IMG/VR virus record: IMGVR_UViG_3300021433_000004
Span: 1 to 61,396 of that record
Reading direction: 5' to 3' (one strand)
Source of the DNA: a virus
Taxonomy: Duplodnaviria; Caudoviricetes
Length of the DNA: 61,396 bases
Shown: positions 23,894-54,712 of the stretch, piece by piece
How positions within the stretch are numbered: the stretch's first letter is position 1
Layout of the letters: every line of letters starts with the position of its first letter
Program-made: the position numbers and the translations under genes
Notes under the pieces: generated by a model
Databases searched by the model: none
What the model was told of the DNA's origin: nothing
Seen by the model: only the letters and a program-made list of their open reading frames with translations

Positions 23894-23903
23894 TGAGTGT
23901 CCT

Positions 23904-26900: not shown

Positions 26901-27515
26901 GTTATAGCTGGGCAAAACGTAGCGAATGTTTGCCAGATTGTTTGCCGAGAAGCTGGTTGCTACGGGCTGCACGATGGGCTGCGTCGCCGAAGGCCCCAGA
27001 GAGACATTCCCCGTTCCTGTCCCGCAGGAAGGGCAGCCAAAGGTATTTCCTGTGAGCGTTAATGGCGAGGCTGCGGTGTAAGTCTGACCGCCTCCGCCAG
27101 TCCCTCCCGGAGTGATCGTAAAAGGTGAGTCCCCGCAGTTATTCTGCACACAGACAGTCAGATCATATGTCCCGGAAGGAATCCAAAACCCTATATTGCC
27201 CTGATTGTCGCCCGTAGGCTGGCAGGCCGAGGGCTGGGGCTGCGGAGTGTCCTGCGAACCATTAGGGCATGCTACGCCGAGCGACGTGTATGTGGTCACG
27301 TAGTTCGTGCAAGGAACCTGATTGGCTGGATGTGCGCACACATGCACGATCGGCGCATTGGGCGGAACATTTGCCACCAGCACTGGAGGATAGGAACTCG
27401 ATACGCTGGGCCAGGAGATATCGACGCGCACATTCTGGGCAAAGGCCGAAATAGCCAGAACGTGCCATACGACCAAAATCAGGGCTGTAGTATAGTGCCT
27501 TCGGAGGAATACCAT
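23904..27515 (-). CDS. ~1200-aa signal-peptide tailspike-like protein
   Basis: Likely start ATG 27515, hydrophobic leader ending SAFA-Q; N-terminal DNQGNIGFWIPSGTYD head-binding-like segment; beta-helix-like middle; lectin-like C-terminus. Confidence 0.75.
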   Translation of the reverse strand: MVFLRRHYTTALILVVWHVLAISAFAQNVRVDISWPSVSSSYPPVLVANVPPNAPIVHVCAHPANQVPCTNYVTTYTSLGVACPNGSQDTPQPQPSACQPTGDNQGNIGFWIPSGTYDLTVCVQNNCGDSPFTITPGGTGGGGQTYTAASPLTLTGNTFGCPSCGTGTGNVSLGPSATQPIVQPVATSFSANNLANIRYVLPSYNWSRNPTGGLVANTPATVTLAPCPLGIFGSDSTTNVYIFGVGTPEVVQMTGGGSCVPGSTGTITFTPLNTHNNGYAIGSASSGIQETITDAATNGTGAVGVLYHVVFPPSNPASTTPYVIRGRVNVPQGYADIDVSGAMIDCEAIWDTCFFTNAANVVFHGIRAFTKTTQSGASITQTSCSANVSTITTTLNPPVGGWVDIQWTDNPHYWGIYQVATSSSSQWTFTDNNCTHGGTPGAGTIATASTPGGNAPEHAFLEDNGFSVTLRDFYYDFSTFAGHNFLNSVIVVDGDQNFLWDNGDIDGGTYCGPDYCGQVLYGPGGPAGTPLGTLSHVSMTINCFGNGVKWLAGQGLVMTGFSVIQGFAQYGLAAGPLRGSSGPTMLDGLYEEVGGCYNPFMIAAGFPTGNLSSISAAGAEQFSAPLYLTKTADGHSPSLQGFEPNFSNAAGGTTNYEYWLVINDGSNASVPLRFGDAQPTSSASYAIGWPRYASQTGSTVTYQVLRTSNTVGQQPTAPFGTATNALTSSPIAQCSAYICTMNDSTTTTLQSYTVATNPALIPELWNFPGTAVLGGGALMYSDSGLPAGSTAAGYVTTLPNQLEVFALNEDQPTPGVAIGASNMSFAAGGQTIGLASGATLMPNSQSITQPLGDQLKGRLNFLGFEQALYPQHLVTLHDSNPYKTIANAAHRPLWDANDVYLGFDSPAGTSAGNAQLSIGAPGAISQYIANTGDNKSWGERLTSAGKFFQTPITDFNNLTVLGNTAGVAFPFTLSGTQVSNVLGSATGWTTNGGSGAACNISGGSAVLAVGSDNKVFCSYTNSTFANSQYIVAQITALGSIDTGIGVRMSNSAETGYFFLCLAASSSVIYKYVAGAPTAITSGGTPCAINDYLLLEISGSSITAMDITQGFTLTGTDSSLTSGYPGLASTNISGGTWANLRAGNLTYSSTQPVTINGMTLSQTAGVPTANCNIGDLDSNSSASSASTVLYVCYPSNTWSAIAVP

Positions 27516-27804
27516 GAAAACCTTAGTTTTGATTCTGGCGCAATTGGCGGCCAGTGGAAGTGATGCGTACTTCACAGACCGAAACATGCATCAGAGGCAG
27601 TTCGTTGAATATGATCCCATTGCCAAACCGTTCACTCACAGCCGCCCTGCTTTCATTGCCGCATCTTCGTTCGGATGCGGAGTAGAAATCGTGATGCCGC
27701 GCCTGCTGCACAAGCGCAATCCGCGATTATCTTTGCTGATGTCAGGCACGGGTATAGCCGCTAGTGGTTTCGGAGCCATCACAAGCGCAGATCGCACTCG
27801 TTAA
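27514..27804 (+). CDS. Antisense small membrane protein (DUF5658-like)
   Basis: GGAGG at 27503-27507; DAYFT...EYDPIAKPF; hydrophobic segments; exactly fills the intergenic gap. Confidence 0.65.
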   Translation: MKTLVLILAQLAASGSDAYFTDRNMHQRQFVEYDPIAKPFTHSRPAFIAASSFGCGVEIVMPRLLHKRNPRLSLLMSGTGIAASGFGAITSADRTR

Positions 27805-29168
27805 TGGAAATTGCAGACGTAATACCATGTGTAGGTCGTCGTATTTGCCAGCGCAGAAGATGTGGATAATGTCCAAATTGTGCCTGTAGCTCCCGTGACG
27901 TAAATATCGGCTGCTAATGCCGCCGTCGTCGCTCCGTTCGGGGCGAATACGCAGGCATTTGAATTGTGCGTCCCCCCGAAAGTAACGGTAAAGATTAGGC
28001 CGGAGGTAGCACTGCCTCCAGTCGTTACCTGAATGACTCCGTTATTATCGAAGCAAGCCCCTACTGAGACACAAGCGGCCGTTCCCCCGGCTCCCGTTGC
28101 CGCCCCTGGGACTACCGAGGCGATCGCGGTATATCCTAAAAGCGAAGGTGGGGTTTGCGGCCTGAATTCAGGGCCGAATAGATCGACGGGCTCTGGTCCA
28201 ATGCCGCTTGCCATGACGATCCCGAGAACTTGTCCGCCTCCCGTTCCTGAAGTAGTCGAGAGAGGGTACGTTGCTCCCGCATCTTGGCACCAGCCAGCAA
28301 CGGAGGTATTGATAGTTACATAATCGCCTGCCGTCGTGCCCCCGCCAAAGGTGCAGGACGCAGGCCCGCTTTGCTGAATCGTGGCCGTACCGGTAATCCC
28401 AGCCCCGGCTACTACGATCCCTATAACTCCGCTCGTAGCGCCAGCGGGAGTGATTGTTGCCGTAGAGGGTGCACCCGTGAGACTTGCCAAAGCTCCGAGT
28501 ACAGTAGCTGTCACAGAATTATTGGCGATGCAAGCGTAGGTTCCCGGCCCGTTCTCTACGCCGCAGCCATTTATTTCCGTACCGCTCGTAAGATTCTTGT
28601 TGGTAAGATTCTGCGTTGCATTCTGGGTAACCAGTGTGTCATTGCCCGTGAGCGGTGGAGTATGCAGGATGTAATTTGCCGATTGCGGAATGACATCCAA
28701 AGTAGTCTGTGTACCCGAAGGCGATCCGAATACCAATTGGGAATCGGTTTCTGCAAAGAAAGTTTGGGCATCAAAGGTCTGCGATAACAGCCATGTATTT
28801 GCCGTGCCGAGAAGCGATTCATTCACTGCATTGACAGTCAGAATTGTTTGCCCGCTGGAGCAGTTTGTCCCGCCAGAAGTCTTTACGACGATGGAATACA
28901 GAGCGTTATTGAGATACCAGATATTCGCCGTTCCGCTGGCACTCAAAGGCACCGGATTTGGGTTTAGAATTGATCCAGTGTAGTCAGTGTATGTAGGCTG
29001 CGGCGTCGTCGAGTTCGTGTTATACGTGAATACACAGCCAAAAGAGTTAGGCTGGCCGTTCGGCAGCAGAGACACGAACTGCGGATACTGACCTAAGGCA
29101 ACACTCTGTGAGTGCGCGAAGCTCGCCGCGAACAAAAGTAGCGCAAAGATTGGAAGCCGTTTGTTCAT
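27801..29168 (-). CDS. Signal-peptide tail fibre/spike with podovirus head-binding-like N-domain
   Basis: MNKRLPIFALLLFAASFAHS-Q then NGQPNSFGCVFTY...TYTDYTG...NPNPVPLSASG..IW. Confidence 0.8.
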   Translation of the reverse strand: MNKRLPIFALLLFAASFAHSQSVALGQYPQFVSLLPNGQPNSFGCVFTYNTNSTTPQPTYTDYTGSILNPNPVPLSASGTANIWYLNNALYSIVVKTSGGTNCSSGQTILTVNAVNESLLGTANTWLLSQTFDAQTFFAETDSQLVFGSPSGTQTTLDVIPQSANYILHTPPLTGNDTLVTQNATQNLTNKNLTSGTEINGCGVENGPGTYACIANNSVTATVLGALASLTGAPSTATITPAGATSGVIGIVVAGAGITGTATIQQSGPASCTFGGGTTAGDYVTINTSVAGWCQDAGATYPLSTTSGTGGGQVLGIVMASGIGPEPVDLFGPEFRPQTPPSLLGYTAIASVVPGAATGAGGTAACVSVGACFDNNGVIQVTTGGSATSGLIFTVTFGGTHNSNACVFAPNGATTAALAADIYVTGATGTIWTLSTSSALANTTTYTWYYVCNFH

Positions 29169-30748
29169 CGCTGCGACCCCTCAATGGCAGTTTCCAGTTC
29201 ATGCCCGTGCTGCCATTCTTCATCGGAAATCGAATCCTCGGGGCTGATGACTGGTTTCACTGGCACGCGCTTCCCGTTCACTACTTTCGCAACCAGCGTG
29301 GAGTTCTGCCGCAGCGTGTTCCATGCCTTGCCCTTAGATGAAGCTGATTCAAAGGCCGCCGCTTGTTCTGGGCTCACGTCGCCATGGATGTAGTGCGCCC
29401 CGGTCTGCGTCACAGATTCAAACTCCTGCGTCTGGGGGTCGTATTTGAATGACTTTAAGGCCGAAGACTCTACCGGGATATGCCCTGCCGGAAGGTCCGA
29501 GGGTTTCGCTCGTTTGGCTGCTTCCTGCAATTGCTGGCTGAGAGTCCATTCGGGATGCTCGGATTTTACTTGCGCCATAATGCCCGTATCGCGCGATGCT
29601 CCCGCTGCGGTCCCTGCCGTCTGTTTTGGCGTTACAATCCCTTGATTCTTTAATGGCACGTTCGGCTCCAATTCCTTCCCACCCAAGCCCTGGTTCAGCA
29701 AATCGCCCAGTTTGGCAATGTTATTCGCTCGTTCGGTGAGTTCCGAAAGCGAAGTCTTTGGGCCTAACTCCTGCAATGCCTGATTCACGGCCTTTGGAGG
29801 CAGTTCCATGATGGTTTTATTCGGGATAGACGCAAGAGCATCAGACTGACTGGCGGCTGGCTTTGCGCCCTCCGCCAAGGCGTTTCCCTGAATCAGTTCA
29901 GGGGCAGGAGCCTCGGGCTGCGTAGCGGGCGCATTTGTGCCCTTGCCGCCGAATATCGGCTGGTTAGCCCGCTCTGGCCCTAAAACCCCTTCTGCGAGGC
30001 CACCGCCCGTTTTAGCGCCATAGTAAGCACCGGGGGCAGACAATGTGCCATGCCCGAGTCCTGCCCCTGTAGCGGCTCCTAATGCTTGCCCTGCCTGCTT
30101 TGGCGTAACGTTCTGGACGGTCCTCGTCACATCTTCCAGGGAGGGTGCCGCTGCAGCTACTTCCCCAGCAGCCCTCGTTGCTCCTGCCGTAGCCGCTGCT
30201 ACTGCCGGGACCGTCACTGCACTGCCAATGACCTTCCCCGGATTCCCTTCTTTTGCCGCTTGCTCCTGCTGGGCTACCGGATCGCCGATCATTTCCATGG
30301 CCGATGCGCCCAGATCATACAAATGCCCGTGTTCTTTCACGCGCTCGGCACTCTGAGCATCCTTCGCCGCCGCCTGCTGCGAATACAGTTTCCATTTTTC
30401 ATCATCCGACAAGGGAGTGCTGGTATCGCCCAGCATCTTAGCGATTGGCGAGCCTTGCGCCATGGGATCAGGGGTAGCTAAGGCTTTCGGGATTCCCGTG
30501 ATATTGTCCCAGAGAGTTTTCCCGGCCTCTTTCCACCAAGGTGCAATCGGTTGCTCCGAAAGTGGCTGCACCTTTGCCCCCGCCTTCACAGCATCCAAAT
30601 ACCTGTCCGCTGGCACGACTCCCGGCGTCCCGTCTGGGGCGGTGATATGCACTCCGGGCTTGGCTCCAGCGCCAACCGCCGCTTGCAGTTTGTCAGCGGG
30701 AATATCGCCCAAAGTCCCGTCAGGCGCGAATATGGGTACTGTACTCAT
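29165..30748 (-). CDS. DNA ejection/internal virion protein with C-terminal KTSC domain
   Basis: Position after other ejection genes; VESSALKSFKYDPQTQ...GAHY...VSPE...ASSKGKAWN. Confidence 0.7.
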   Translation of the reverse strand: MSTVPIFAPDGTLGDIPADKLQAAVGAGAKPGVHITAPDGTPGVVPADRYLDAVKAGAKVQPLSEQPIAPWWKEAGKTLWDNITGIPKALATPDPMAQGSPIAKMLGDTSTPLSDDEKWKLYSQQAAAKDAQSAERVKEHGHLYDLGASAMEMIGDPVAQQEQAAKEGNPGKVIGSAVTVPAVAAATAGATRAAGEVAAAAPSLEDVTRTVQNVTPKQAGQALGAATGAGLGHGTLSAPGAYYGAKTGGGLAEGVLGPERANQPIFGGKGTNAPATQPEAPAPELIQGNALAEGAKPAASQSDALASIPNKTIMELPPKAVNQALQELGPKTSLSELTERANNIAKLGDLLNQGLGGKELEPNVPLKNQGIVTPKQTAGTAAGASRDTGIMAQVKSEHPEWTLSQQLQEAAKRAKPSDLPAGHIPVESSALKSFKYDPQTQEFESVTQTGAHYIHGDVSPEQAAAFESASSKGKAWNTLRQNSTLVAKVVNGKRVPVKPVISPEDSISDEEWQHGHELETAIEGSQR

Positions 30749-32574
30749 TGGTTCCTAGCGGTGCCGCCAAACTGCGAGAAGAAATCCTTCGCGGGACTGG
30801 CGTTTTGATTTCCGCCTCCCGTCTTCATGCGGTTCTGAATATCATTGATTTGCTCTTGGTAGGCTTGGTGACGATTGCCCATGTCCTGCCGCAAAACGCT
30901 GGCTGCGGAGGCGATCTGGCGGAGCGTCGCGTTGGGGCCGATCAGCCCTTCGACTTCATGCCGCGCCGAATCCGAGAGAACGCCGGAAGCGTTCGATGAG
31001 TTCAGTACTTTGGCGATTTCTGTTACTGCTGTCTGCCGTGCGGCATTGAATGCTGCCTGATCTGCACTGCCCAAGGCCCCAGCATCCACTTTCCGCAGCG
31101 GAGTGTTAATCCAAGGCGAGCCTGAATCCAGAATGGGTTTAGCGGTTTGCAAGAACAAATCGAGGTTCTTTCCTGCTGTGTTCTCGAAGGCCGTAACCTG
31201 ATCGAAGTTCGTCTGAATCTTGCCGAGAGACTGCTGGTTGGCTTTGAATGCTGCTGAGTTTTCGGCCAGACTAGCACCAGGATGAAGCTCTCCAGCCCGA
31301 TTCATCAACTCACGGTTCAATGCGATGCCGCTGATTCCGCGCCCCAACTGCGGGAGTTGGCCGGAGGTGTAATACTTCTCCGCCGCTTGATCAAACGCTT
31401 CCTGCGTCATGCCGAAGTGCTTGGCCGTGTCCGCCGGAGTCCCTCCAGTCGGCGCTCCAGGAACTCCCGCCCCACTCTCCAAAGCATATCGAGTGTTGAT
31501 TGGCAGAGTAGATTTGTAGTGCAGGAAGTCCGCTGGCCCTTTCCCCGGATGATCCTTGATCCAGTCCTGCATTTCCTGCATCTCTACGGGCGCAACGCCG
31601 TGAATCATCTGTCCGGTCTTGAAATTGACGAGCGTTCCCTCTCCCGCTGGTTTCCACTGCGAGGCTTCCGCTTCCGCTTGAGCCTTATTCCCCTCAGATG
31701 TTGCCTTTGCCAATTCAGCAGCCTTCTGCTGCTGGCTCAGTAATTCTGCGTGAAGCCCCGCTCCAGCTTCGGCCTGATCTAAATCCGAAGTATCCGTCAG
31801 CGTCGGCTTGAATTGCCCAATTGGAATCCCCATTCGTGCCGCGCGAACTAAAAATTGCTGATAGGCAGCTTGCGCTTCGGGAGTAATAGGCTTCGGAGCC
31901 TTTGCCGCATCTTGCAAGGCAGATTCCGTTCCCGTAGGTGCTGTTCCCGGTTCTGGTGCTCCTAGAGATACTGGGGAACCCGGCTGCGCTGCCCCGATCT
32001 CTGGCGGACGTGCAATATCTTGCGGAATGCCCTGCGGCTGTGCGCCTTGAGGAGTTACAGTTTGCGGCGTGCCTCCTGCATTCTGCGGAACTACCGTAGC
32101 CCCGCCCGTCTGTTTCGAGAGTGCCTTATCGTTCGCATCCCGGACGGATTCAATGCCATCAACCAAAAATCCATTAACCTTCTGCTGATGCTCGATCTGG
32201 GCATCGCCCAGGCCGATTAAAGACTTTTGCATCTCGGCCTGCTTCATTCGCATGGCCTGAATGGACATCGGATCGGCCCCGCCTTGCAGCATGGCATTGT
32301 ACAGACCTTCCGTATCGAATCCCGTAGGCTTCCCGTTCTCATCCTTCTGCACAAATTGGGGAGCCAAAGACCGCCGCAATTGCTCATCTTTCAGCTGCAT
32401 AGCCTGCATCTGGCCTTGCTGCTGGGTGAGCTGAGTCTGTGCCTGAATCTGCTGGCGCTGTGCGGCCTGCGTCTGAAGCTGCGAAGCTCTTTCAAACTCC
32501 GCGAGAGCGTTTGGCGGAGGCGAGGCTGGAGCCTGTGCAATATCAAGAGCCGGGAGGGGAATATTCGTGCCCAT
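30745..32574 (-). CDS. DNA ejection/internal virion protein
   Basis: Gln/Ala-rich helical 609 aa protein in the P22 gp20/gp16 position. Confidence 0.7.
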   Translation of the reverse strand: MGTNIPLPALDIAQAPASPPPNALAEFERASQLQTQAAQRQQIQAQTQLTQQQGQMQAMQLKDEQLRRSLAPQFVQKDENGKPTGFDTEGLYNAMLQGGADPMSIQAMRMKQAEMQKSLIGLGDAQIEHQQKVNGFLVDGIESVRDANDKALSKQTGGATVVPQNAGGTPQTVTPQGAQPQGIPQDIARPPEIGAAQPGSPVSLGAPEPGTAPTGTESALQDAAKAPKPITPEAQAAYQQFLVRAARMGIPIGQFKPTLTDTSDLDQAEAGAGLHAELLSQQQKAAELAKATSEGNKAQAEAEASQWKPAGEGTLVNFKTGQMIHGVAPVEMQEMQDWIKDHPGKGPADFLHYKSTLPINTRYALESGAGVPGAPTGGTPADTAKHFGMTQEAFDQAAEKYYTSGQLPQLGRGISGIALNRELMNRAGELHPGASLAENSAAFKANQQSLGKIQTNFDQVTAFENTAGKNLDLFLQTAKPILDSGSPWINTPLRKVDAGALGSADQAAFNAARQTAVTEIAKVLNSSNASGVLSDSARHEVEGLIGPNATLRQIASAASVLRQDMGNRHQAYQEQINDIQNRMKTGGGNQNASPAKDFFSQFGGTARNQ

Positions 32575-32576
32575 GA

Positions 32577-33485
32577 TTAGAAACTCGGTAGCCCTGACAG
32601 ATTCGGTTCGCCCGGAATCCCCGTCACGCCGTTATAAGGCGAGGGAGCCGTGATGTTTGAGTAAGGATTCGCCACGGGCATGTACTGCGGGCTATTCAAG
32701 GCCGAATCGGGAACTCCGCCTACACTGCCGCCTGTAAACGATCCCGTCGGGTAATTCATATTGCTCATGTTTTGCAGGGCAAAGCCTTGATCTATGCTGC
32801 TCGCAATCCCGTTGTACATGCCTGAATAAGCATTCGCGGCCCCAATGTAGCCCGAAGCTGCTGCCGCACCCTGATTGTTAAGCTGCGAGGCTTGCTGCTG
32901 CCCGCCCGTCAGATAGAGATTTGAGAGATTGTTTGCCGCCGCCTGTCCAAATTGCCCTAACTGGCCCGTGGATGTAAGCCCGGTATTGACTCCGCCCGCT
33001 GCGGCTCCGAGATTCGTATTGTACTGCTGTAAAGCGTTGTTATAAGCCTGCTGATAGGTGTTCGTTGCCAGCCCTTGCCCATATTTTTGTAACGCAACGC
33101 CCGTATTCCCGGAATTAAGATTGCCTGTAGCCGCAGCCTGCTCATTGATGGCCTGTGTGCCCTGCTGGAGATTGAACTGATACCCCGGCGTAGCTTCCGC
33201 CTGAGCGAGCGTGGGCGCAGTGAATGGATGCTGGAGTAACTGTGAATATGCATTTGCCGCTGTGCTGCCAAGCTGCTGATATGGCTGTTCTGCTTGCTGC
33301 TGCTGCTGCCATTCCTGATTCTGAAAATTGATGCCCGATTGCTGATTCTGGAGTTCAAGCTGCTGCGCCTGTTGCGCCTTCGTCTCTTGTACTTGGGCAG
33401 CAGACTGCGCGGCATCAGCTTTCGTGACGCCTCCAGCGACCGCTGCGGCAATTCCGACGGCCGCTACGGTTGCCATGATACTCAA
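32577..33485 (-). CDS. P22 gp7-like DNA ejection (pilot) protein; alternative start ATG 33476
   Basis: Hydrophobic Ala/Gly N-terminus; QPYQQLG...TPGYQFNLQQG...AAATGNLNSGNT..ALQKYGQGLA. Confidence 0.85.
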   Translation of the reverse strand: MSIMATVAAVGIAAAVAGGVTKADAAQSAAQVQETKAQQAQQLELQNQQSGINFQNQEWQQQQQAEQPYQQLGSTAANAYSQLLQHPFTAPTLAQAEATPGYQFNLQQGTQAINEQAAATGNLNSGNTGVALQKYGQGLATNTYQQAYNNALQQYNTNLGAAAGGVNTGLTSTGQLGQFGQAAANNLSNLYLTGGQQQASQLNNQGAAAASGYIGAANAYSGMYNGIASSIDQGFALQNMSNMNYPTGSFTGGSVGGVPDSALNSPQYMPVANPYSNITAPSPYNGVTGIPGEPNLSGLPSF

Positions 33486-33976
33486 GTTAGTTTATAGCCT
33501 TTCTTGTGAACTGCATACGCTGCTTTGCGCTGATTAGCACGTTGCTCTTTGCGAGTAGACCACTTCACATTTCCCGGCTCGTAGTGGCCATCGTTGTTGA
33601 TTCGGTCGATGGTCATTCCTTCTGGGCGAGGACCGACCTCTTTATAGAACTGCTCAAAAGAGGTGAAGCGGAACTCGATCCCGCGACCGCCATAATATTG
33701 GAATGCGATATGGGCAGGTTTCGTGCACCGCCTCCGCGCCTCGATGTAAACCTTGTATTCCCGGCTCCGTGAAAGCCCATGCGTCGAACCAAAGCGAAAT
33801 GCCGAACATCCGCACGATTGATGATTGCCGGAAGTTAGGGCGGAACTTTCTAGATAAACGAGCTTGCCGCATTCACAGTTACACAGCCACATTACACGTT
33901 GGCGTTTAGAGTGACCCACCGGCCATCTCGCGTTTAACTTCCCGAATTTCTTGTTTTCTAAATCTAGGATAGGCAT
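33482..33976 (-). CDS. HNH-family homing endonuclease
   Basis: WLCNCECG, SCGC, YYGGRGI, TIDRINNDGHYEPGNVKW. Confidence 0.9.
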   Translation of the reverse strand: MPILDLENKKFGKLNARWPVGHSKRQRVMWLCNCECGKLVYLESSALTSGNHQSCGCSAFRFGSTHGLSRSREYKVYIEARRRCTKPAHIAFQYYGGRGIEFRFTSFEQFYKEVGPRPEGMTIDRINNDGHYEPGNVKWSTRKEQRANQRKAAYAVHKKGYKLT

Positions 33977-33985
33977 GGGGATAGT

Positions 33986-34444
33986 TTACCGCAGCAGCTT
34001 TTGTCTCACGATATCAGTTTTCTCCCAACCTAGAGCCTCCAACAGAGGGCCGCTTTCGTGATGCACCTTTGTGCTGATTGAAGCCTTCACTACGCCTAAC
34101 TCTCGCAAGGCTTGCTCTGCGGCCCTTAACAATCGAACGCCTGCTCCGCCTCGGCGTTCCGATGGCATGATGTAAAACATGTCCGTAGTGGCAACTTTCC
34201 CGGCATCTCGATTGTGCGGATGATGAGCGAGGACGATTGCCACCAGATATCCGATGAGAGCGCCGTCCCGCCTTCCTGCCACCACCAGCAAATATCCTTT
34301 GCGCTCCAAATCCGCATAGGCATCATTATCCAGCCCCATTGGCATTGCTTCTTTATGTAAGGCGAGTTCATCGTAATGGACTTTGAAAATCTCCTGCCCA
34401 TCGCGCCAGAGATCGGCCCAGGTTTCACGCTCGAACGTCAGCAT
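33986..34444 (-). CDS. GNAT family acyl/acetyltransferase
   Basis: DMFYIMPSERRGGAGVRLLRAAE motif A; LEALGW. Confidence 0.88.
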   Translation of the reverse strand: MLTFERETWADLWRDGQEIFKVHYDELALHKEAMPMGLDNDAYADLERKGYLLVVAGRRDGALIGYLVAIVLAHHPHNRDAGKVATTDMFYIMPSERRGGAGVRLLRAAEQALRELGVVKASISTKVHHESGPLLEALGWEKTDIVRQKLLR

Positions 34445-34658
34445 TCGCCTGCCAGTGATGGAATTGGAACAGATGCTCAAGGTCGTGAAACGTTATGGCC
34501 TTGGAAATGATCGCATCGGTCAAGGCGACATTGAATTCCTTTTCGCAGCGCTGGATGAATTGCAGATATTCCAGTGAATCTATGGCCGAATCTTCGATTA
34601 CGTCCGAGAGTGCGATTTTGCCATCGAACTCATCCGCTAAGAGTTCTTTGAAGGTCAT
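34425..34658 (-). CDS. Acyl carrier protein
   Basis: 77 aa, acidic; DSAIDSLEYLQFIQRCEKEFNVALTD matches the ACP DSL...ExEF...D pattern (Ser28); ATGA overlap with the upstream gene. Confidence 0.8.
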   Translation of the reverse strand: MTFKELLADEFDGKIALSDVIEDSAIDSLEYLQFIQRCEKEFNVALTDAIISKAITFHDLEHLFQFHHWQANADVRA

Positions 34659-34999
34659 GAGTGCCCCACGACGTACCATGCCGTCCCATCAGACTTGAAC
34701 TTCACAAAAGAATACTGTGCGGTCAAAGTTTGCGGCCCATCCGCTGCCCCGGTGATCGTCGCTGCATTCGCATCAGACGACACCTTTTTGTAGGTTAGTT
34801 CTGAATTTTGGTTTGTCTGCCCTGTAGTGCCAATCAATCCTGCTGCGGGAAGCGGAATGGAGTCAGCGCCCTTGGAGCTATCGATTGTGATCAGCGGAGA
34901 TGCCTGCTGCGTTTCCAATTCCCAATATTGCATCTGATCGGAAATGTTTGAGTTTCGCAGGGGTGGCTCGCGGCGAACTGTTTGCGTAACTGACATCAA
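34655..34999 (-). CDS. Small tail protein (P22 gp26 needle position)
   Basis: Directly after the gp10-like gene; LTAQYSFVKFKSDGTAWYVV fibre-type motif. Confidence 0.65.
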   Translation of the reverse strand: MMSVTQTVRREPPLRNSNISDQMQYWELETQQASPLITIDSSKGADSIPLPAAGLIGTTGQTNQNSELTYKKVSSDANAATITGAADGPQTLTAQYSFVKFKSDGTAWYVVGHS

Positions 35000-36528
35000 C
35001 TTATCTTCCTGTACTGCTCCGAAAGCCGTTCGCCCTGCGGATAAATCGGCTTGCCTTCGCTATTCGCCTCCACGTACCCATCCAGAATCCTGAAAGGCAC
35101 TGGGTCAGTCCAGATGATGCGGAATTGCCGTTTACGCGCTCGCCCCAGCATGACCTTGCGAACGCGCTTGCCGTACTCTCCAGCCTGCCCGCAATCGAGA
35201 TAAAATACATTTCCCCAAGTCTTGCCGCCATTATTCGACCACTGAAGCATCAATTGCGGTCCTCTGGGCTGGCCGTTTCCATCTAGCAGCGGAGGGATCG
35301 GCCCTAACCCTGCCTCTACCAAGAACTCTGCCAGACTGAAATAGATCCAGCGATTCTCGTTCATGATCGTAGGACTTTGCCGGAAACGCCGCATCACATT
35401 CCCGAAGTCCATGGAAATATTCATGGACTGCTGGTAGATGTTACCCGAGGCCCAATCGCCCACAAGATGCATCCCGGCAAAGAACATATGCGAGGTAGCG
35501 CGATGGGCCGAATAGGTTCCCGTATTCTGATTCCAGAAGCCCCACTCTGACCAAGTAGAGGAAGAAAAGTTATAGGCCCAGGTCTTATTTGCCGAAGGGA
35601 ATCGGATCACCCAAAAGTTATGCCCTTCCTCCTGATAGGTATAAGCCACGGCATCGGCAATCGTTGGATAGTTCTGCCACGCAAACTCCACGGCAAGCGT
35701 AGAGATGCGAATGCCGATATAATTTCCCATCATCTTCGCGATGCCCTGCCCGCGGTCATTTGCCTCAATCCATGCAATCGTATCGTTCACCTGAACCGTG
35801 CCGAACGTTGCCCCGCAGCCATCTTCGAGGAATGCCGCCTGAATCGGAATGAAGGGCGGGAACCCTGCACCGGAATTGTAGTAAGCAATCGTCTTCTTCG
35901 GCGAGAGAAACCAGACTTCGCGGTGATCTACCTTCATCGAAACGATATTGTCCGGAAAGTAAGAAATTGTCGAGATAAACAGACCGTTCCACGTCGTACC
36001 GTCTTCCAGATTCGAGACTTGGAAGGTGTTCGAGTTCTGAATCACGGCAAAGAAGTAGCCATCGCAGAAATCAATCTGGAGGACTGGACCATTGAACTGC
36101 GCCATATCCACGGCAAGGAAGCTATTCGGTGGATGAAAAACTCCATTTGAGTCTGTAACACCAACCAAAACGAAGACGTAGAGATCGCCATTCGAGAGAA
36201 TCAGTAAATGGGTTTGACAGCAGCAAATCTGCGTAGGCGTGAGGGGAGGGCCGTTCAAGGTGCCCCAGTTTGTGTACGTGCCATTCGCCAAGAGCTCATA
36301 GAAGCTCGCGCCAGCTACAAAGGCTCGGCCATTGACTTCAAACTCGCCCGGAATCGCTGTCTCTGGCAGGCTATACTTGATAGCCAGGCCGGGACGGTCA
36401 TAAATCGTCATGCCAGACGTTGCTCCCGAAGTCTCGGGCTGGACGCAAAAACCATTTACCAGCGCCTCATTGTCGCTAATGGGCGAGCGCAGCGTGTAAC
36501 TCGGTCCTGCGAGTCCGTAGCGAGCCAT
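34996..36528 (-). CDS. P22 gp10-like tail hub / DNA stabilization protein
   Basis: 510 aa beta-rich; YQEEGHNFWVIRFP..NKTW; LQWSNNGGKTW...GQAGEY...LG. Confidence 0.88.
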   Translation of the reverse strand: MARYGLAGPSYTLRSPISDNEALVNGFCVQPETSGATSGMTIYDRPGLAIKYSLPETAIPGEFEVNGRAFVAGASFYELLANGTYTNWGTLNGPPLTPTQICCCQTHLLILSNGDLYVFVLVGVTDSNGVFHPPNSFLAVDMAQFNGPVLQIDFCDGYFFAVIQNSNTFQVSNLEDGTTWNGLFISTISYFPDNIVSMKVDHREVWFLSPKKTIAYYNSGAGFPPFIPIQAAFLEDGCGATFGTVQVNDTIAWIEANDRGQGIAKMMGNYIGIRISTLAVEFAWQNYPTIADAVAYTYQEEGHNFWVIRFPSANKTWAYNFSSSTWSEWGFWNQNTGTYSAHRATSHMFFAGMHLVGDWASGNIYQQSMNISMDFGNVMRRFRQSPTIMNENRWIYFSLAEFLVEAGLGPIPPLLDGNGQPRGPQLMLQWSNNGGKTWGNVFYLDCGQAGEYGKRVRKVMLGRARKRQFRIIWTDPVPFRILDGYVEANSEGKPIYPQGERLSEQYRKIS

Positions 36529-37070: not shown

Positions 37071-37874
37071 TTACCATGATCTGCTGCGGTAATTGAACGT
37101 TGTGCTTCGCAGATCATTGTCCGCACCCGGTATGCCCGAGTCCCGAGTATTCATGCGCGGCGGCGTATTGTTTAGCCCAAAGACCCCCGCTCTTGCTGCC
37201 GCTGCCTGCAATTTCAGTTCGGGATTTGCCGCTAATTGTGCACCTGAGAGTAATGACTCAGCCAGACTCAGCATCAGTGCATTGCGGTAACCGGGAGGTA
37301 TCGTGCCAATCGTTGTGTTCGGGCCGCCAATCGGATCGGTAATCGAGGCAAACTGACTCAGCAAGGACCATGTTTCTAACTGAGTTTGATAGGCCGTCGT
37401 CGGAATCGGCCAGTAGAACAAAGAACCATTCGGGAATGTAGGATTGTAGTACAAGTCCGTGGGCTGCGAACTCGTTAATTGCTGAATCGTATTGCCCATC
37501 CACCATTCCTCATCGCGCAAGGTCAATGGAATTGAGACGAAGGGCTGCGGAGTATTATTCAGAATCACCGTTGCCCGGACAATCTTTACCGGTCGCTGCG
37601 GAACTACAAACGTGGCGCCCGGCGCAGGCCCAATCAGATGCGGCGAGAGATTGGGAACCAGCGTATAGATCGCAAGATTCTGGGCATAGACGTAGTTCTT
37701 TTTCGTTGCCCAGGTATCGAGCAGGTAATTGACCTTGCGAAAGGCCCACTGCGCCGTATCCGAATCAATCGTATCTCCCGGTGATTGTATGCCCGTTTCA
37801 ATCAGGGCATCCGAGATCAGATCAAGTACGGTGTAGGTGAGCGGGCCTTCCCCAATAGGCGGCGTAATCGGCAC
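37071..37874 (-). CDS. P22 gp4-like head-to-tail connector
   Basis: TVLDLISDALIETG...LLDTW...IPPGYRNALMLSLA. Confidence 0.8.
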   Translation of the reverse strand: MPITPPIGEGPLTYTVLDLISDALIETGIQSPGDTIDSDTAQWAFRKVNYLLDTWATKKNYVYAQNLAIYTLVPNLSPHLIGPAPGATFVVPQRPVKIVRATVILNNTPQPFVSIPLTLRDEEWWMGNTIQQLTSSQPTDLYYNPTFPNGSLFYWPIPTTAYQTQLETWSLLSQFASITDPIGGPNTTIGTIPPGYRNALMLSLAESLLSGAQLAANPELKLQAAAARAGVFGLNNTPPRMNTRDSGIPGADNDLRSTTFNYRSRSW

Positions 37875-40154: not shown

Positions 40155-41396
40155 TCAACTGCAAGCGATGCGGACGGCGCAGTTATCGGGGTACAGTGCC
40201 CCAAAGCCCATCAAGACATCTGCGCGGGTGACTTTCTTACGCTCGATCGGATCAAACATTTCCAGCAAGGCAATCGAGATCCCGGTATCGGGGTCCGTAG
40301 CCCGTGCCGACCATTCGCAAGCCTTCGGGATTTCCAGCGGTACGCCGACCATCGCAAAGGCATCTTTGGTGATTGCCATGCCCTGCGCCGAAGACTTTCC
40401 GCTTGGCGAAGTGGTTCCGGGGAAGGACGTGATTGCCGCCGTATTGGTAGGTAGAGAATCGACGTTCTGATACTGCGAGCCGGGGCCGAAGATGGCTGGC
40501 GAGATGTTCAATACGTCTGCGCCGCCGCCAACGCAGGTAATGCTCTGCGTCACGACGAACTGCTTCAGAGTATTGGAAATGTTCGCCAGGTTCTCCGGGT
40601 TGACCGCATTCACATTGGCGATGTTAAAGATATCGCCCTGATTGTACGTGTCACCCGCCGTCGCAAAAATCGTTAGCGTCGATCCTTGCTGCCCTGCACC
40701 GGCTACGGTATTCGCCCCAGCCTGGGTTCCAGCCGTCTGCCGCCAATTGTTGACTGACTCGTACCAGTCAAAGCCGCTCATCTTGCCCATGGAGCCTTGC
40801 TTATACTGGCGCGAGATTTCCGAAGTTGGATTGAAGAACGAAGCCAAAGACGGAATCAAGCTGGTTCCAACCGAAGGCGGGTAGATCATGCCCCATTCCT
40901 CATCTTGCGGGCAGCCTTGCTCAATCAGCCTCTGGCGGGCCTGCTGGAACGTCGTCATGGAGGTTGGGTCTACGCCCAATTGTCCAACGATGTTGGAGGT
41001 ATTCTGCATGGCGAATAATGCAAAACGCCGGTCAATTTCATTGGCAAGTTTCGCCATCAGCTTGTCAATGTACTCTTCCTTGAACCATTCCCGGCCGCGC
41101 TCCATTTTGAGAGCACGCTCGACGGAATCGACTTGGAAATGGATACCGAAAATCTGATTTACACTGACCGTGGTGTAAATCCGGTTAATGGGCTGAGGTT
41201 GAAACGCCAAGCCGTTCGTTACCAGCCAGCGCTGCGGTAGTTTGACGCGGACGGCTTCGCCGACGGCAAAGTCTCGTTCGTATTCTTTTTCGTACTTATG
41301 GGTGGCAAACTGTGCGTATACGAGCTTATTCAGCAGCATACGCAGACTTTCCGCCGCGACCCAATCGACGAACTGAAATGTGTTTGGGGTAGCCAT
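40155..41396 (-). CDS. Major capsid protein (P22 coat family)
   Basis: 413 aa; LLNKLVYAQ...GEAVRVKLP...GKMSGFDWYES...RADVLMG. Confidence 0.92.
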   Translation of the reverse strand: MATPNTFQFVDWVAAESLRMLLNKLVYAQFATHKYEKEYERDFAVGEAVRVKLPQRWLVTNGLAFQPQPINRIYTTVSVNQIFGIHFQVDSVERALKMERGREWFKEEYIDKLMAKLANEIDRRFALFAMQNTSNIVGQLGVDPTSMTTFQQARQRLIEQGCPQDEEWGMIYPPSVGTSLIPSLASFFNPTSEISRQYKQGSMGKMSGFDWYESVNNWRQTAGTQAGANTVAGAGQQGSTLTIFATAGDTYNQGDIFNIANVNAVNPENLANISNTLKQFVVTQSITCVGGGADVLNISPAIFGPGSQYQNVDSLPTNTAAITSFPGTTSPSGKSSAQGMAITKDAFAMVGVPLEIPKACEWSARATDPDTGISIALLEMFDPIERKKVTRADVLMGFGALYPDNCAVRIACS

Positions 41397-41418: not shown

Positions 41419-42528
41419 TTAGCGGCGGGATGCCGCAAGATCGCGTGCGTTCATGGCCCTCATGTACGAGGCCATGTCGCCTCTTGCCAAAGCATCTTCC
41501 GCCTCATCCTTTGGAGCGGCTTTACGTCCGCTCAATTCCGTAGGCGGCGGCGGTAGCTTCGGCGGTTGAGGTTTCGCAGGAACAGGTTCCGATACCGGCT
41601 TGTCAGGCGCAGTCACTTCTCGCTCTATCGCTTCCAGAATCTTGATTTGGCGCACAGGACTGACTTTGTTCTCAAACTTCTGAGTCTTGATGTCATATGT
41701 CCCATAGTCCCATTTCTTCGTTTCTGGATCGTATGTGCAGCCGTAGAACTCAGCTACGATCTCAGGATGCTTCTGCAAGTGATACAGAATCTCTCCTGGA
41801 TGATCGGACTCGTCAATGAACTGATCGACGGGTGAGCCTGCGGGAATCGGCAAGCCCTGACCTTTGCCAACGACTTCAATAAAGTCAGGGTACTTTTGCA
41901 TCGCCGATTTGGATTTCTCCAGCAGGGCAGCGCCTTTCGAGGTCATTTCTTCGGTAGCGCGACGAGCTTGTTCGGCCTTCGATAAACGCTCTTCAATTTT
42001 CGCCTCAAACTGTTTTTCCTTCCAATCATCGACGGCATCCATAAAGGCCGCCATGGTTTCAAAAGGTTTACCAGTCTTTGGGTCATTGTCCGTTATCTTG
42101 GGCCGGGCACTGAGTTTTTCGGGCTCCGCCTTAATCGGTTCAGTCTTGACTTCGGCGGGTTGAGAAGTTGCTTGCTTCCGCTCAAGCTCCTGGTATTTTC
42201 TCTGGAGATTGCCGTATTGCTCGGATAGCTCCTTCCAGCGTTTGTCGGAACGACTTTCTTGCTTCTGCGGTTTGGCAGCTGGCGATGCTGCGGCAGTTTC
42301 GCTCTTGGCCGGAGGCGGTACGGCCGGTTTCGCCTCAATCTCTTTTGCGGGGGCCGACTCCGCTGGTTTCGGCTCAGGTTCTTTTACTTTAATGGCAGGG
42401 ATATCGCCGGTCTGCCGCCATGTGGCTAACTCTTTCGCCGTGGCATGATCCAAGCGGTCCTGCACGGAAATCTCTTGTACCTCGGGGGCTGGGGCCGACT
42501 CAGCCGGAGTAACGGCGGGAGTGCTCAT
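41419..42528 (-). CDS. Scaffolding protein
   Basis: Between portal and coat; charged, Pro-rich, helical. Confidence 0.8.
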   Translation of the reverse strand: MSTPAVTPAESAPAPEVQEISVQDRLDHATAKELATWRQTGDIPAIKVKEPEPKPAESAPAKEIEAKPAVPPPAKSETAAASPAAKPQKQESRSDKRWKELSEQYGNLQRKYQELERKQATSQPAEVKTEPIKAEPEKLSARPKITDNDPKTGKPFETMAAFMDAVDDWKEKQFEAKIEERLSKAEQARRATEEMTSKGAALLEKSKSAMQKYPDFIEVVGKGQGLPIPAGSPVDQFIDESDHPGEILYHLQKHPEIVAEFYGCTYDPETKKWDYGTYDIKTQKFENKVSPVRQIKILEAIEREVTAPDKPVSEPVPAKPQPPKLPPPPTELSGRKAAPKDEAEDALARGDMASYMRAMNARDLAASRR

Positions 42529-47817: not shown

Positions 47818-47991
47818 TTAGTTTACCGCCGTGTGTTCGGGATGGTGCAGAGTGGCAACAATATGAAAGCGGTCACATAGCAGATCCGTAGCGTCATGAT
47901 CATTCCTATGACCTCCAGGCATGCGGTCGTAGGATACGGGCCTGACCTCCTCGCATGATGCACACCAGATGCTTTCTACTTCAGGCTTCAT
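47818..47991 (-). CDS. Small Cys/His protein
   Basis: TAATG overlap with terL; WCASCEE...LLCDRFH. Confidence 0.55.
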   Translation of the reverse strand: MKPEVESIWCASCEEVRPVSYDRMPGGHRNDHDATDLLCDRFHIVATLHHPEHTAVN

Positions 47992-54221: not shown

Positions 54222-54712
54222 GAGGCCTGCTCGTATGCTGACCCGCATGCCCTAAGTATGCGATGCACGACAGACGGTATATCCGCTTCGACTTCTTCGT
54301 TCGTGAACCTGACAACTCTGATCCCGGCCCTTCTCAATATCCGTGTTCTCTGTGCATCTTTCTTGCCGCGGAACAGATGGTACGGGCCATCGACCTCAAT
54401 AGCCAACCTGACTCGCGGTATGTAAAAATCAACAATGTAGCATTCGGCGGGATATTGGAAGCAGACTTTAAGTTTATGGCGGGGGAGGACTTCTCGGAGG
54501 ACATTGAGCAGAGTCCGCTCCGCTTTCGTGGCATTGTCGATATTCTCAAGGGCGAACCGTTTAATGCGTGGACTAACTTTGTGCGGATTGTGCAGCTCAG
54601 ACCGTAACCGCTCCTCCCTCCTCTGGCTCTTTGACTTCTTTCGGACGTGCGGAGGAATCCCGAACTGATATTGCATCGACAACGATCGGTATTCGTCGGC
54701 TGATTTGGGCAT
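54215..54712 (-). CDS. DUF559/Vsr-like endonuclease
   Basis: YIVDFY...AIEVDGPYH...DAQRT...VVRFTNEEV. Confidence 0.88.
   Translation of the reverse strand: MPKSADEYRSLSMQYQFGIPPHVRKKSKSQRREERLRSELHNPHKVSPRIKRFALENIDNATKAERTLLNVLREVLPRHKLKVCFQYPAECYIVDFYIPRVRLAIEVDGPYHLFRGKKDAQRTRILRRAGIRVVRFTNEEVEADIPSVVHRILRACGSAYEQASC

What the first reader, a model, noticed from the sequence alone, without database searches (positions are those of the whole stretch)
33986..34658. Acyl carrier protein plus GNAT acyltransferase embedded in the tail/ejection operon
Seen: a 77-aa acidic ORF with an intact DSL phosphopantetheine motif (Ser28) overlaps the upstream tail gene (ATGA) and the downstream GNAT gene (20 nt). 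Only a homing endonuclease separates the pair from the gp7-like ejection gene. No PPTase or fatty-acid synthesis genes are recognisable elsewhere. Known: GNAT-fold enzymes such as LuxI, FeeM, OlsB and the related HlyC take acyl groups from acyl-ACP, and a lone GNAT often precedes podovirus internal proteins. Inference: a dedicated phage ACP, loaded by host enzymes, supplies an acyl chain to lipidate membrane-penetrating ejection proteins.
Basis: partly seen in the sequence, partly recalled or inferred. Interest (0 to 1): 0.87.

Follow-up and report, generated by a model that had tools for sequence, protein, structure and literature searches.

The report
Phage carrier protein paired with acyltransferase
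A short-tailed phage from a metagenome carries a small acyl-carrier-type protein gene locked to an acyltransferase gene at the head of its DNA-ejection gene block, which hints, without proving, that these phages chemically modify the proteins they inject.

Summary
On the minus strand, 34425-34658 encodes a 77-aa acidic protein. It passes Pfam PP-binding, models as a four-helix ACP, and has Ser28 at the start of helix II. It overlaps the upstream gene by ATGA and the downstream 152-aa GNAT (33986-34444) by 20 nt.

The ORF is a real gene. In all 22 of 22 loci (window included) that hold a close GNAT relative and enough upstream sequence, an ACP-like ORF lies directly upstream on the same strand. 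There are 15 distinct ACP sequences, the serine is invariant, and pN/pS is about 0.1.

The gene order matches P22: gp10-like, small gene, ACP, GNAT in the gp14/"IVP-A" slot, HNH insertion, gp7-like, then large internal proteins. HNH genes sit on either side of the pair in relatives, never inside it. In two relatives the whole ACP-to-ejection block is missing from this position.

The genome has no PPTase, AMP-ligase or ketosynthase. Distant phages with a GNAT in this slot have no ACP.

Acyl transfer to ejection proteins remains inference. The GNAT looks like an ordinary CoA-type protein acetyltransferase, and the ACP:GNAT complex prediction gave no verdict. I rate it a new variant of known kinds, of moderate-to-high interest.

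The parts
34996..36528 (-). 510-aa tail hub / head-closure protein, P22 gp10-like; upstream anchor of the module
   Evidence: phrog_578 at 1.4e-80. P22 gp10 hits the same family at 3e-227. Nine related viral loci at 65-76% identity.
34655..34999 (-). 114-aa conserved protein of unknown function, in the slot that P22 gp26 occupies; its stop overlaps the ACP start (ATGA)
   Evidence: Conserved at 46-61% identity in relatives. No Pfam or NCBIfam hit.
34425..34658 (-). 77-aa divergent acyl-carrier-type protein; putative phosphopantetheine site at Ser28
   Evidence: PF00550 at 23.7 bits against a cut-off of 20.8. 11 of 11 family members match PF00550. S28, L29 and E39 are invariant. A profile search of the PDB gave 91 sequences at E<=0.01, and the 60 listed are all ACPs. 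AF2 model pLDDT 85.9, four helices, Ser28 at the helix II N-terminus. pN/pS about 0.1.
33986..34444 (-). 152-aa GNAT acyl/acetyltransferase in the IVP-A (T7 gp13 / P22 gp14) slot; overlaps the ACP ORF by 20 nt
   Evidence: PF00583 at 4e-9. phrog_1249 at 2.5e-16. AF2 pLDDT 91.7. VIA Z 17.0, rmsd 1.9 A over 130 residues to 3lod. Best viral model match includes the Vibrio phage VpV262 N-acetyltransferase, TM 0.83. R97, G100, G102 and the H75-P76-H77-N78 motif are invariant.
33482..33976 (-). 164-aa HNH homing endonuclease inserted between the GNAT and the gp7-like gene
   Evidence: phrog_374 at 3.3e-47. Absent at this place in most relatives. Related HNH genes lie upstream of the ACP in L016 and downstream of the GNAT in L019 and L028.
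32577..33485 (-). 302-aa ejection protein, P22 gp7 / IVP-B-like, with a short N-terminus followed by a Gly/Ala-rich hydrophobic helix
   Evidence: phrog_598 at 3.9e-20. P22 gp7 hits it at 2e-95 and the PfAn1 internal virion protein at 2.2e-38. N-termini printed. It follows the GNAT in every locus that has downstream sequence.
30745..32574 (-). 609-aa presumed internal/ejection protein (P22 gp20 slot)
   Evidence: Assigned by position only. No PHROG hit. Conserved at 44-68% identity in relatives.
29165..30748 (-). 527-aa presumed internal/ejection protein (P22 gp16 slot)
   Evidence: Assigned by position only. Weak phrog_3292 hit at 7.5e-7.
27801..29168 (-). 455-aa protein, last gene of the block that is absent between the 114-aa gene and the tail-fibre-like gene in L005/L006
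   Evidence: No PHROG hit. In L006 the 114-aa gene homologue is followed directly by a 1373-aa protein. Residues 8-124 of that protein match the N-terminus of the window's 1227-aa protein (23904-27587) at 57% identity.

Best explanation
The pair is a dedicated carrier-protein/acyltransferase module belonging to the ejection-protein (internal virion protein) cassette of a podovirus with P22-like gene order.

Proposed mechanism:
1. The 77-aa protein is made in the late operon together with the GNAT. The genes overlap, which implies coupled translation.
2. A host phosphopantetheinyl transferase converts it to the holo form on Ser28. The phage has no such enzyme.
3. It then carries a thioester-bound acyl or acetyl group.
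4. The GNAT sits in the slot held by the non-virion morphogenesis factors T7 gp13 and P22 gp14. It takes the group from the carrier's pantetheine arm and puts it on an amine of a phage protein made from the same cassette.
5. The most likely target is the gp7/IVP-B-type ejection protein or one of the larger internal proteins, modified before or during packaging into the procapsid.

Shown here: the ACP fold and motif, purifying selection, strict ACP-GNAT linkage, an intact-looking GNAT cofactor loop, membership of the ejection cassette, and the absence of phage loading enzymes.

Inferred: phosphopantetheinylation, the donor role of the ACP, the chain length, and the target.

My odds: a real, functionally coupled ACP-GNAT pair, about 0.85. 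ACP as acyl donor to the GNAT, about 0.5. Target is an ejection or virion protein, about 0.3.
For: ACP identity:
- PF00550 is passed by 11 of 11 family members.
- Ser is invariant in the 11-sequence alignment and in all 15 distinct ACP sequences recovered from loci.
- The predicted four-helix fold puts the Ser at the helix II N-terminus.
- The top Foldseek rows are all ACP entries (TM about 0.6-0.72), although none reaches E<=0.001.

Real gene: pN/pS is 0.12 (17 synonymous against 8 non-synonymous differences) and 0.08.

Linkage:
- An ACP-like ORF lies directly upstream on the same strand in 22 of 22 loci, window included, that hold a close GNAT and at least about 170 bp upstream.
- Six further loci had too little upstream sequence and were not counted.
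- Stop/start overlaps of 4, 7-8 or 20 nt occur in 15 of the 19 loci tabulated. L018 has a 1-nt gap. L010, L013 and L023 have a 177-nt spacer.

HNH insertions flank the pair but never split it: the window, L019 and L028 downstream of the GNAT, and L016 upstream of the ACP.

Cassette membership:
- The GNAT is followed by the gp7-like gene in every locus with downstream sequence.
- In L005/L006 the whole ACP-to-455-aa block is missing between the 114-aa gene and the tail-fibre-like gene.

The GNAT looks active:
- R97, G100 and G102 of the pantetheine-pyrophosphate loop are invariant, and so are D88 and the H-P-H-N loop.
- The model has pLDDT 91.7.
- Its neighbours include the protein N-terminal acetyltransferases RimI, Ard1, NatA and NatC at Z 14-16.

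No phage PPTase, AMP-ligase or ketosynthase.

Precedent: passages in bioRxiv 10.1101/2023.10.25.564083 and PMC8784127 state that the GNAT GdvG accepts only ACP-bound acyl units and acylates a ribosomal peptide.
Against: - No direct evidence of holo-ACP, of any acyl load or of a modified virion protein.
- The GNAT's closest solved structures are acetyl-CoA enzymes.
- GNATs in the same slot in three distant phages work without any phage ACP: 0 of 3 whole records have a PP-binding match.
- The ACP is far from housekeeping AcpP (about 17-20 bits against equivalog cut-offs of 70 or more). Loading by host fatty-acid enzymes is therefore uncertain.
- The ACP evolves about twice as fast as the GNAT: mean pairwise identity 36% against 68% over 105 pairs.
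- Homology of this GNAT to T7 gp13 or P22 gp14 could not be shown here.
- A 2022 review of ejection proteins has no occurrence of acetyl-, acylat-, lipidat- or post-translational in its main text (word search only).
Confidence: 0.4

Rival explanations
1. The GNAT is an ordinary acetyl-CoA-dependent enzyme, like the ACP-less GNATs in the same slot of other podoviruses. The ACP is then its acceptor or regulator rather than its donor. One version is that the GNAT loads acetyl from CoA onto the holo-ACP thiol, as GNAT-type loading domains of polyketide synthases do (recalled knowledge of CurA GNAT_L-ACP_L). Another is that it acetylates a lysine of the ACP.
For: The CoA-type R-x-x-G-x-G loop is invariant. 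All top structural neighbours are CoA-bound GNATs. Distant GNATs in this slot lack an ACP. The pairing is strict and the genes are coupled.
Against: The genome contains no downstream enzyme that could use acetyl-ACP: no ketosynthase or AMP-ligase, and no other lipid or polyketide family in the 20 further ORFs scanned. Placement inside the ejection cassette would be unexplained.
Confidence: 0.2
2. The ACP acts non-catalytically as a small acidic chaperone or assembly cofactor for the helical, membrane-active ejection proteins. The model for this is acyl-ACP stabilising LYR-motif proteins in mitochondria (recalled knowledge). The GNAT would then act independently.
For: The ACP is strongly acidic, with pI 4.05-4.69 across 11 members. 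It lies in the ejection cassette. T7 IVP-A is described as a morphogenesis factor not retained in the virion (PMC4819975, section 9).
Against: The invariant Ser and neighbouring Leu point to a pantetheine site rather than a mere acidic surface. Strict coupling to the GNAT, rather than to the ejection genes, is seen across HNH insertions.
Confidence: 0.15
3. The pair acts on the host rather than on the virion. It could modulate fatty-acid or envelope-lipid metabolism, or modify an envelope component. Its place in the late operon would then be incidental.
For: Phage ACPs are usually filed as auxiliary or host-takeover genes (phrog_5934). A preprint predicts that a phage ACP binds host FabZ (passages of 10.64898/2026.03.01.708874).
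Against: The two annotated phage ACPs examined sit among early or replication genes, not next to a GNAT or structural genes. This one is fixed between tail and ejection genes in all 22 evaluable loci, and it moves with the ejection cassette.
Confidence: 0.1
4. The pair is a GNAT-toxin/antitoxin-like module, or the ACP ORF is a chance ORF.
For: A small upstream gene overlapping a roughly 150-aa GNAT is also the layout of GNAT toxin-antitoxin pairs (recalled knowledge).
Against: The upstream protein is a PP-binding four-helix protein, not a DNA-binding antitoxin. It is conserved under purifying selection in a late structural operon.
Confidence: 0.02

Closest known systems
IVP-A slot of podovirus internal-virion-protein operons (T7 gp13, P22 gp14, and the acetyltransferase-family genes of VpV262-type phages; Hardies et al. 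2016, PMC4819975)
   Same: A small non-structural gene lies between the tail hub/tubular tail B gene and the gp7/IVP-B gene. The paper says this gene family, and T7 IVP-A, match acetyltransferases by HHpred (section 9 read). The window has the P22 order gp10 - x - GNAT - gp7. The best viral structural match includes the VpV262 N-acetyltransferase at TM 0.83.
   Different: An ACP gene is coupled to the GNAT here, and none is described in that paper (section 9 read; word search for acyl gave 0 hits). No sequence or profile similarity to PF11039 (P22 gp14) or PF11090 (T7 gp13) was found here. The paper's figures and supplements were not seen.
GdvG-type GNATs of lipidated ribosomal peptides (goadvionins)
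   Same: A GNAT-superfamily enzyme takes an ACP-bound acyl group and N-acylates a ribosomally made peptide (passages in 10.1101/2023.10.25.564083 and PMC8784127).
   Different: Those sit in bacterial biosynthetic clusters together with the synthases that build the acyl chain. Here there is no synthase, and the presumed acceptor is a virion protein. No sequence comparison with GdvG was made.
HlyC-type toxin-activating acyltransferases using acyl-ACP (recalled knowledge, no call)
   Same: Acyl-ACP-dependent lysine acylation makes a secreted protein competent to insert into membranes.
   Different: HlyC uses the host's housekeeping ACP and belongs to a different family (PF02794, not scanned here). 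No such entry appears among the rows listed, which does not exclude similarity.
Stand-alone phage ACPs annotated as auxiliary genes (phrog_5934; e.g. Rhizobium phage RHph_X2_24, Erythrobacter phage ZS04)
   Same: Small PP-binding proteins encoded by phages that have no phage PPTase nearby.
   Different: Those lie among early or replication genes with no adjacent GNAT. They are not significant sequence relatives: the best tblastn E-values were 0.1 to 1 with clade-B queries, and there was no match at all with the window's ACP.

Membership tests
Acyl/peptidyl carrier proteins (Pfam PF00550 PP-binding) | Profile match above the curated cut-off | tested here: met
   23.7 bits against a cut-off of 20.8. 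22.6 bits in the six-frame scan. 11 of 11 family members match, best 2.1e-10.
Acyl/peptidyl carrier proteins (Pfam PF00550 PP-binding) | Four-helix bundle with the conserved Ser (D-S-L) at the N-terminus of helix II | tested here: met
   AF2 model pLDDT 85.9 with helices 3-11, 28-42, 48-52 and 57-76. S28 and L29 are invariant and D27 is present in at least 90%. In the 15 distinct locus sequences the Ser is kept, and the preceding residue is D in 11, E in 3 and Q in 1. This is a predicted structure, not a solved one.
Acyl/peptidyl carrier proteins (Pfam PF00550 PP-binding) | Post-translational 4'-phosphopantetheinylation of the Ser | not testable with these tools
   Needs mass spectrometry after AcpS or Sfp treatment. 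There is no phage PPTase (PF01648 absent).
Housekeeping fatty-acid-synthesis ACP (AcpP; NCBIfam equivalogs) | Score above the equivalog cut-off | tested here: not met
   Best 20.3 bits against a cut-off of 70 for the window protein. The clade-B relatives reach at most 32 bits against 66-92.
GNAT acyl-CoA N-acyltransferases (PF00583) | Profile match above the cut-off, plus the GNAT fold | tested here: met
   37.2 bits against 20.7. 829 PDB chains at Foldseek E<=0.001. VIA Z 17.0, rmsd 1.9 A over 130 aligned residues to 3lod.
GNAT acyl-CoA N-acyltransferases (PF00583) | The R/Q-x-x-G-x-G/A loop that binds the pantetheine pyrophosphate | tested here: met
   R97, G100 and G102 are invariant in 21 sequences, just before helix 101-115. 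The motif definition is recalled knowledge.
T7 gp13 / P22 gp14 (IVP-A) families PF11090 / PF11039 | Position between the tail hub gene and the gp7/IVP-B gene | tested here: met
   phrog_578 protein - 114 aa - ACP - GNAT - HNH - phrog_598 protein. P22 gp10 and gp7 fall in these same two PHROGs, and the P22 order is 10-26-14-7.
T7 gp13 / P22 gp14 (IVP-A) families PF11090 / PF11039 | Sequence or profile similarity | tested here: not met
   No PF11039 or PF11090 match in the window at E<=10. hhalign of the GNAT profile against P22 gp14, T7 gp13 and a 17-sequence gp14 profile gave probabilities of 0.3 or less. The profiles were shallow (Neff about 2), so distant homology is not excluded.
Acyl-ACP-dependent GNAT-like acyltransferases (GdvG, LuxI, FeeM, HlyC types) | Uses ACP-bound acyl donors; a dedicated ACP is encoded alongside | tested here: inconclusive
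   The adjacent, coupled ACP is present in 22 of 22 evaluable loci. Donor use is untested, and the structural searches list only CoA-type GNATs in their top rows.
Acyl-ACP-dependent GNAT-like acyltransferases (GdvG, LuxI, FeeM, HlyC types) | A long acyl-chain pocket | not testable with these tools
   Model coordinates are not returned, so no pocket analysis was possible.

The most novel reading that the evidence does not exclude
GNATs in the IVP-A slot of podoviruses are protein-lipidating or acylating enzymes that use a pantetheine-bound donor. In this clade the phage supplies its own carrier protein; elsewhere the host's ACP or CoA serves. The acyl group goes onto the gp7/IVP-B-type ejection protein, or a larger internal protein, and helps it insert into the host envelope to build the DNA conduit. 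That would give the long-unexplained T7 gp13 / P22 gp14 class of non-virion morphogenesis factors an enzymatic role.
Probability: 0.15. Interest if true: 0.85.

Novelty: new variant of a known kind. Interest (0 to 1): 0.6.

Why it matters
Ejection proteins of short-tailed phages must leave the capsid, cross or insert into the envelope, and build a DNA channel. The small gene that precedes them (T7 gp13, P22 gp14, and GNATs in many marine phages) is needed for infectious particles but has no known chemistry.

A carrier protein locked to that gene in a whole clade is the first concrete hint about what kind of substrate such an enzyme might handle. It also turns the question into simple experiments: load the ACP, assay the GNAT, and weigh the ejection proteins.

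If the carrier turns out to be only an acceptor or a chaperone, the pair would still be an unusual use of an ACP inside a virion-assembly operon.

None of my eight literature searches returned a paper describing an ACP in a phage ejection or tail module. The library lacks most subscription journals, and supplements were closed.

Tried and rejected
Complex prediction. The ACP:GNAT job, with both chains given as alignments, scored 0.23 and 0.22 against a mark of 0.32. Controls were not run, so there is no verdict either way.

Searches with the ACP alone:
- tblastn against 50,697 phage records found no match at E<=1.
- The word-based search of 5.8 billion proteins found only the protein itself among 2 candidates.
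- The viral-contig scan confirmed none of 11 pattern hits.
- The alignment-based scan recovered only 2 loci, both already known.
- Relatives came instead from the exhaustive HMMER search, with 13 hits at E<=0.001, and from synteny.

Fusions. The 55 GNAT relatives are 118-176 aa long, within a search range of 83-266 aa, so no ACP-GNAT fusion was seen. Longer fusions, such as GNAT joined to an ejection protein, were not searched. Among the 13 ACP hits, the long ones are four multi-domain proteins of 1609-5594 aa and two tandem di-ACPs.

Host and prophage relatives. Genome-contig scans with the GNAT profile and with the gp10-like protein confirmed nothing (0 of 28 and 0 of 32 pattern hits). The host is unknown.

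Homology to P22 gp14 or T7 gp13 was not detected.

Structural searches with the GNAT model. The top 50 rows in each list no LuxI-, FeeM- or HlyC-type entry. This does not exclude similarity. Foldseek with the ACP model gave no match at E<=0.001; its top rows (E 2.5e-3 and weaker) are ACPs.

The toxin-antitoxin reading was rejected because the upstream protein is an ACP fold in a late structural operon.

Paper supplements were closed.
Full report
WHAT THE WINDOW IS

The window is a whole virus record of 61,396 bases, with a CheckV completeness estimate of 100. A long minus-strand late operon encodes:
- large terminase (47991-49475)
- portal (42525-44831)
- scaffold (41419-42528)
- major head protein (40155-41396)
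- a 267-aa protein matching only phrog_12985 (unknown function), which I take to fill the adaptor slot by position (37071-37874)
- a 510-aa phrog_578 protein (34996-36528)

P22 gp10 falls in phrog_578 (3e-227) and P22 gp7 in phrog_598 (2e-95). The window's 302-aa protein (32577-33485) hits phrog_598 at 3.9e-20.

The local order is therefore: gp10-like, 114-aa gene, ACP, GNAT, HNH, gp7-like, 609 aa, 527 aa, 455 aa, then giant tail-fibre-like genes. This mirrors the P22 order 10-26-14-7-20-16. The GNAT (152 aa) sits where gp14 (151 aa) sits.

THE OBSERVATION

All the stated details are correct.
- The 77-aa ORF (34425-34658, minus strand) has D27-S28-L29.
- Its ATG overlaps the TGA of the 114-aa gene (ATGA). 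Its last 20 nt overlap the GNAT ORF that starts at 34444.
- Pfam gives PP-binding at 23.7 bits (cut-off 20.8) and Acetyltransf_1 at 37.2 bits (cut-off 20.7).
- The protein between the GNAT and the gp7-like gene is an HNH endonuclease (phrog_374, 3.3e-47).
- Six-frame scans of the record found no ACPS-type PPTase, AMP-binding enzyme or ketoacyl synthase, and only one PP-binding match.
- Pfam scans of 20 further ORFs gave DNA methylase, ERF, YqaJ, a primase zinc ribbon and several DUFs. Nothing was lipid-related.

IS THE ACP REAL?

Single-sequence searches were nearly blank. An exhaustive HMMER pass over 1.84 billion representatives found 13 proteins at E<=0.001:
- seven small ones (66-97 aa)
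- two tandem di-ACPs (196 and 205 aa)
- four multi-domain proteins of 1609-5594 aa, each matched over a short stretch

In an 11-sequence alignment, S28, L29 and E39 are invariant and D27 is nearly so. All 11 members pass PF00550. The profile finds 91 PDB sequences at E<=0.01, and the 60 listed are all acyl carrier proteins, with the Ser aligned to theirs.

The AF2 model (pLDDT 85.9) has four helices with Ser28 at the start of helix II. Foldseek gave no match at E<=0.001, but its top rows are all ACP entries with TM 0.6-0.72. The ESM Atlas look-up agrees.

Close pairs of loci give pN/pS of 0.12 and 0.08 for the ACP gene.

It is not a housekeeping AcpP. NCBIfam ACP equivalogs score about 17-20 bits against cut-offs of 70 or more.

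LINKAGE

I collected relatives in two ways: through the gp10-like protein (9 viral loci) and through the GNAT (1 viral and 18 metagenome loci). I then scanned all loci in six frames with profiles of the ACP and the GNAT.

- All 22 of 22 loci, window included, that hold a close GNAT (57-80% identity) and at least about 170 bp upstream have an ACP-like ORF directly upstream on the same strand. L018 is cut by the contig end. L031 is weak (E 2.8e-4).
- Six loci (L025, L026, L028, L029, L032, L033) had too little upstream sequence and were left out.
- Several loci are the same or near-identical contigs. There are 15 distinct ACP sequences, all with the serine.
- The ACP stop and the GNAT start overlap by 4, 7-8 or 20 nt in 15 of the 19 loci tabulated. 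L018 has a 1-nt gap. L010, L013 and L023 have a 177-nt spacer.

The ACPs fall into two types, about 27% identical to each other, while their GNATs stay about 66% identical. Overall mean pairwise identity is 36% for the ACP against 68% for the GNAT.

HNH genes occur upstream of the ACP (L016) and downstream of the GNAT (window, L019, L028), but never between the two.

The GNAT is followed by the gp7-like gene wherever downstream sequence exists.

Three of the nine gp10-based loci (L005, L006, L007) have no ACP or GNAT after the 114-aa gene. In L006 a 1373-aa protein follows instead. Residues 8-124 of that protein match the N-terminus of the window's 1227-aa protein. The whole ACP-to-455-aa block therefore behaves as one cassette that is elsewhere, or absent, in those fragments, which are 20% complete.

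THE GNAT

Among 21 relatives the invariant residues include:
- R97, G100 and G102, the cofactor pyrophosphate loop
- D88 and F90 on the central strand
- an H-P-H-N loop between two strands

The model has pLDDT 91.7. The nearest solved structures are single-domain CoA-type GNATs:
- 3lod at Z 17.0
- RimI at Z 15.8
- the HP0935 protein acetyltransferase at Z 15.7
- Ard1, NatA and NatC at about Z 14-15
- Naa60 and AAC(3)-Ia head the Foldseek list

The nearest viral models include the Vibrio phage VpV262 N-acetyltransferase (TM 0.83) and a Roseobacter phage CRP-4 GNAT.

In the phage collection, 9 records hold relatives at 30-36% identity. In the three I opened, the GNAT lies just before internal virion or coiled-coil proteins. 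None of these three whole records has a PP-binding match.

WHAT IS KNOWN

Hardies et al. [quoted passage not shown] In many podoviruses it matches acetyltransferases, and T7 IVP-A (gp13) does too. [quoted passage not shown] They do not mention acyl carriers: a word search for "acyl" gave 0 hits.

I could not reproduce a sequence link between this GNAT and PF11039 or PF11090. The assignment to that slot rests on position and on the VpV262 structural match.

A direct precedent for a GNAT that needs an ACP-bound donor to acylate a ribosomal peptide is GdvG (passages).

Other phage ACPs exist, but the two I examined sit among early genes without a GNAT.

MECHANISM AND ODDS

The data establish a functionally coupled ACP-GNAT pair inside the ejection cassette. 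The direction of transfer, the chain length and the acceptor are inferred.

I favour this route: a host PPTase makes holo-ACP, the ACP carries an acyl or acetyl thioester, and the GNAT transfers it to an ejection or other morphogenetic protein. Overall confidence is about 0.4.

The gp7-like proteins of GNAT-bearing phages all begin with a very short N-terminus followed by a Gly/Ala-rich hydrophobic helix. An N-terminal or nearby amine is a plausible acceptor, but that is speculation.

Rivals:
- an acetyl-CoA enzyme with the ACP as acceptor or regulator (0.2)
- a chaperone-type ACP (0.15)
- a host-directed function (0.1)

The complex prediction gave no verdict.

VERDICT

I rate it a new variant of known kinds: the IVP-A-slot GNAT, plus a phage ACP.

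Interest is 0.6. The pairing is clean, it is not described in what I could search, and it gives a testable handle on an old puzzle. The chemistry is unproven and the clade is known only from metagenomes.

Noticed in passing
window 33482-33976; L016:1966-2442; L019:1259-1624; L028:571-1011: Related HNH homing endonuclease genes (35-65% identity) are inserted at different points around the ACP-GNAT pair in different relatives. They lie upstream of the ACP in L016 and downstream of the GNAT in the window, L019 and L028. This region looks like a homing hot spot.
   Followed up: partly
L006:3867-7988 against window 27147-27506: In L005/L006, which are among the closest relatives by the gp10-like protein (76%), the 114-aa gene is followed directly by a 1373-aa protein. 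Its N-terminus matches the window's 1227-aa protein. The whole ejection cassette is absent from this position.
   Followed up: partly
L002:5401-5997 (Pseudomonas phage PfAn1): The ORF directly upstream of the slot GNAT in PfAn1 is an Asp/Asn beta-hydroxylase family protein (PF05118, 2.4e-17). This is another protein- or lipid-modifying enzyme next to internal virion protein genes.
   Followed up: no
ACP relatives P0005, P0006, P0008, P0010; L012:7868-8080: Five of the 11 aligned ACP-family members end in a C-terminal cysteine. The meaning is unknown.
   Followed up: no
L010, L013, L023 (for example L013:8280-8435): In the clade with the short, more canonical ACP type, a 177-nt spacer separates the ACP and the GNAT. 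It holds a 51-aa hydrophobic ORF, which may be a small membrane protein or may be spurious.
   Followed up: no
window 12721-27587: Four consecutive late genes of 1227, 1537, 249 and 1936 aa have no PHROG match at E<=0.001. They are presumably tail fibres or spikes of unknown type.
   Followed up: no
window 696-2267, 7611-8153, 54215-54712, 55945-58114: Early-region genes include a C-5 cytosine DNA methylase, DUF1643, a DUF559 endonuclease-like protein, DUF5131, and a YqaJ exonuclease plus ERF recombinase pair.
   Followed up: no
ESM Atlas look-up with P0001: One of the nearest feature clusters (score 0.91) is a 586-member, 95% viral cluster of about 94-aa hypothetical proteins. Only 11% of its members carry PF00550. 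It may be a large, unrecognised viral carrier-protein family. This is a lead only.
   Followed up: no
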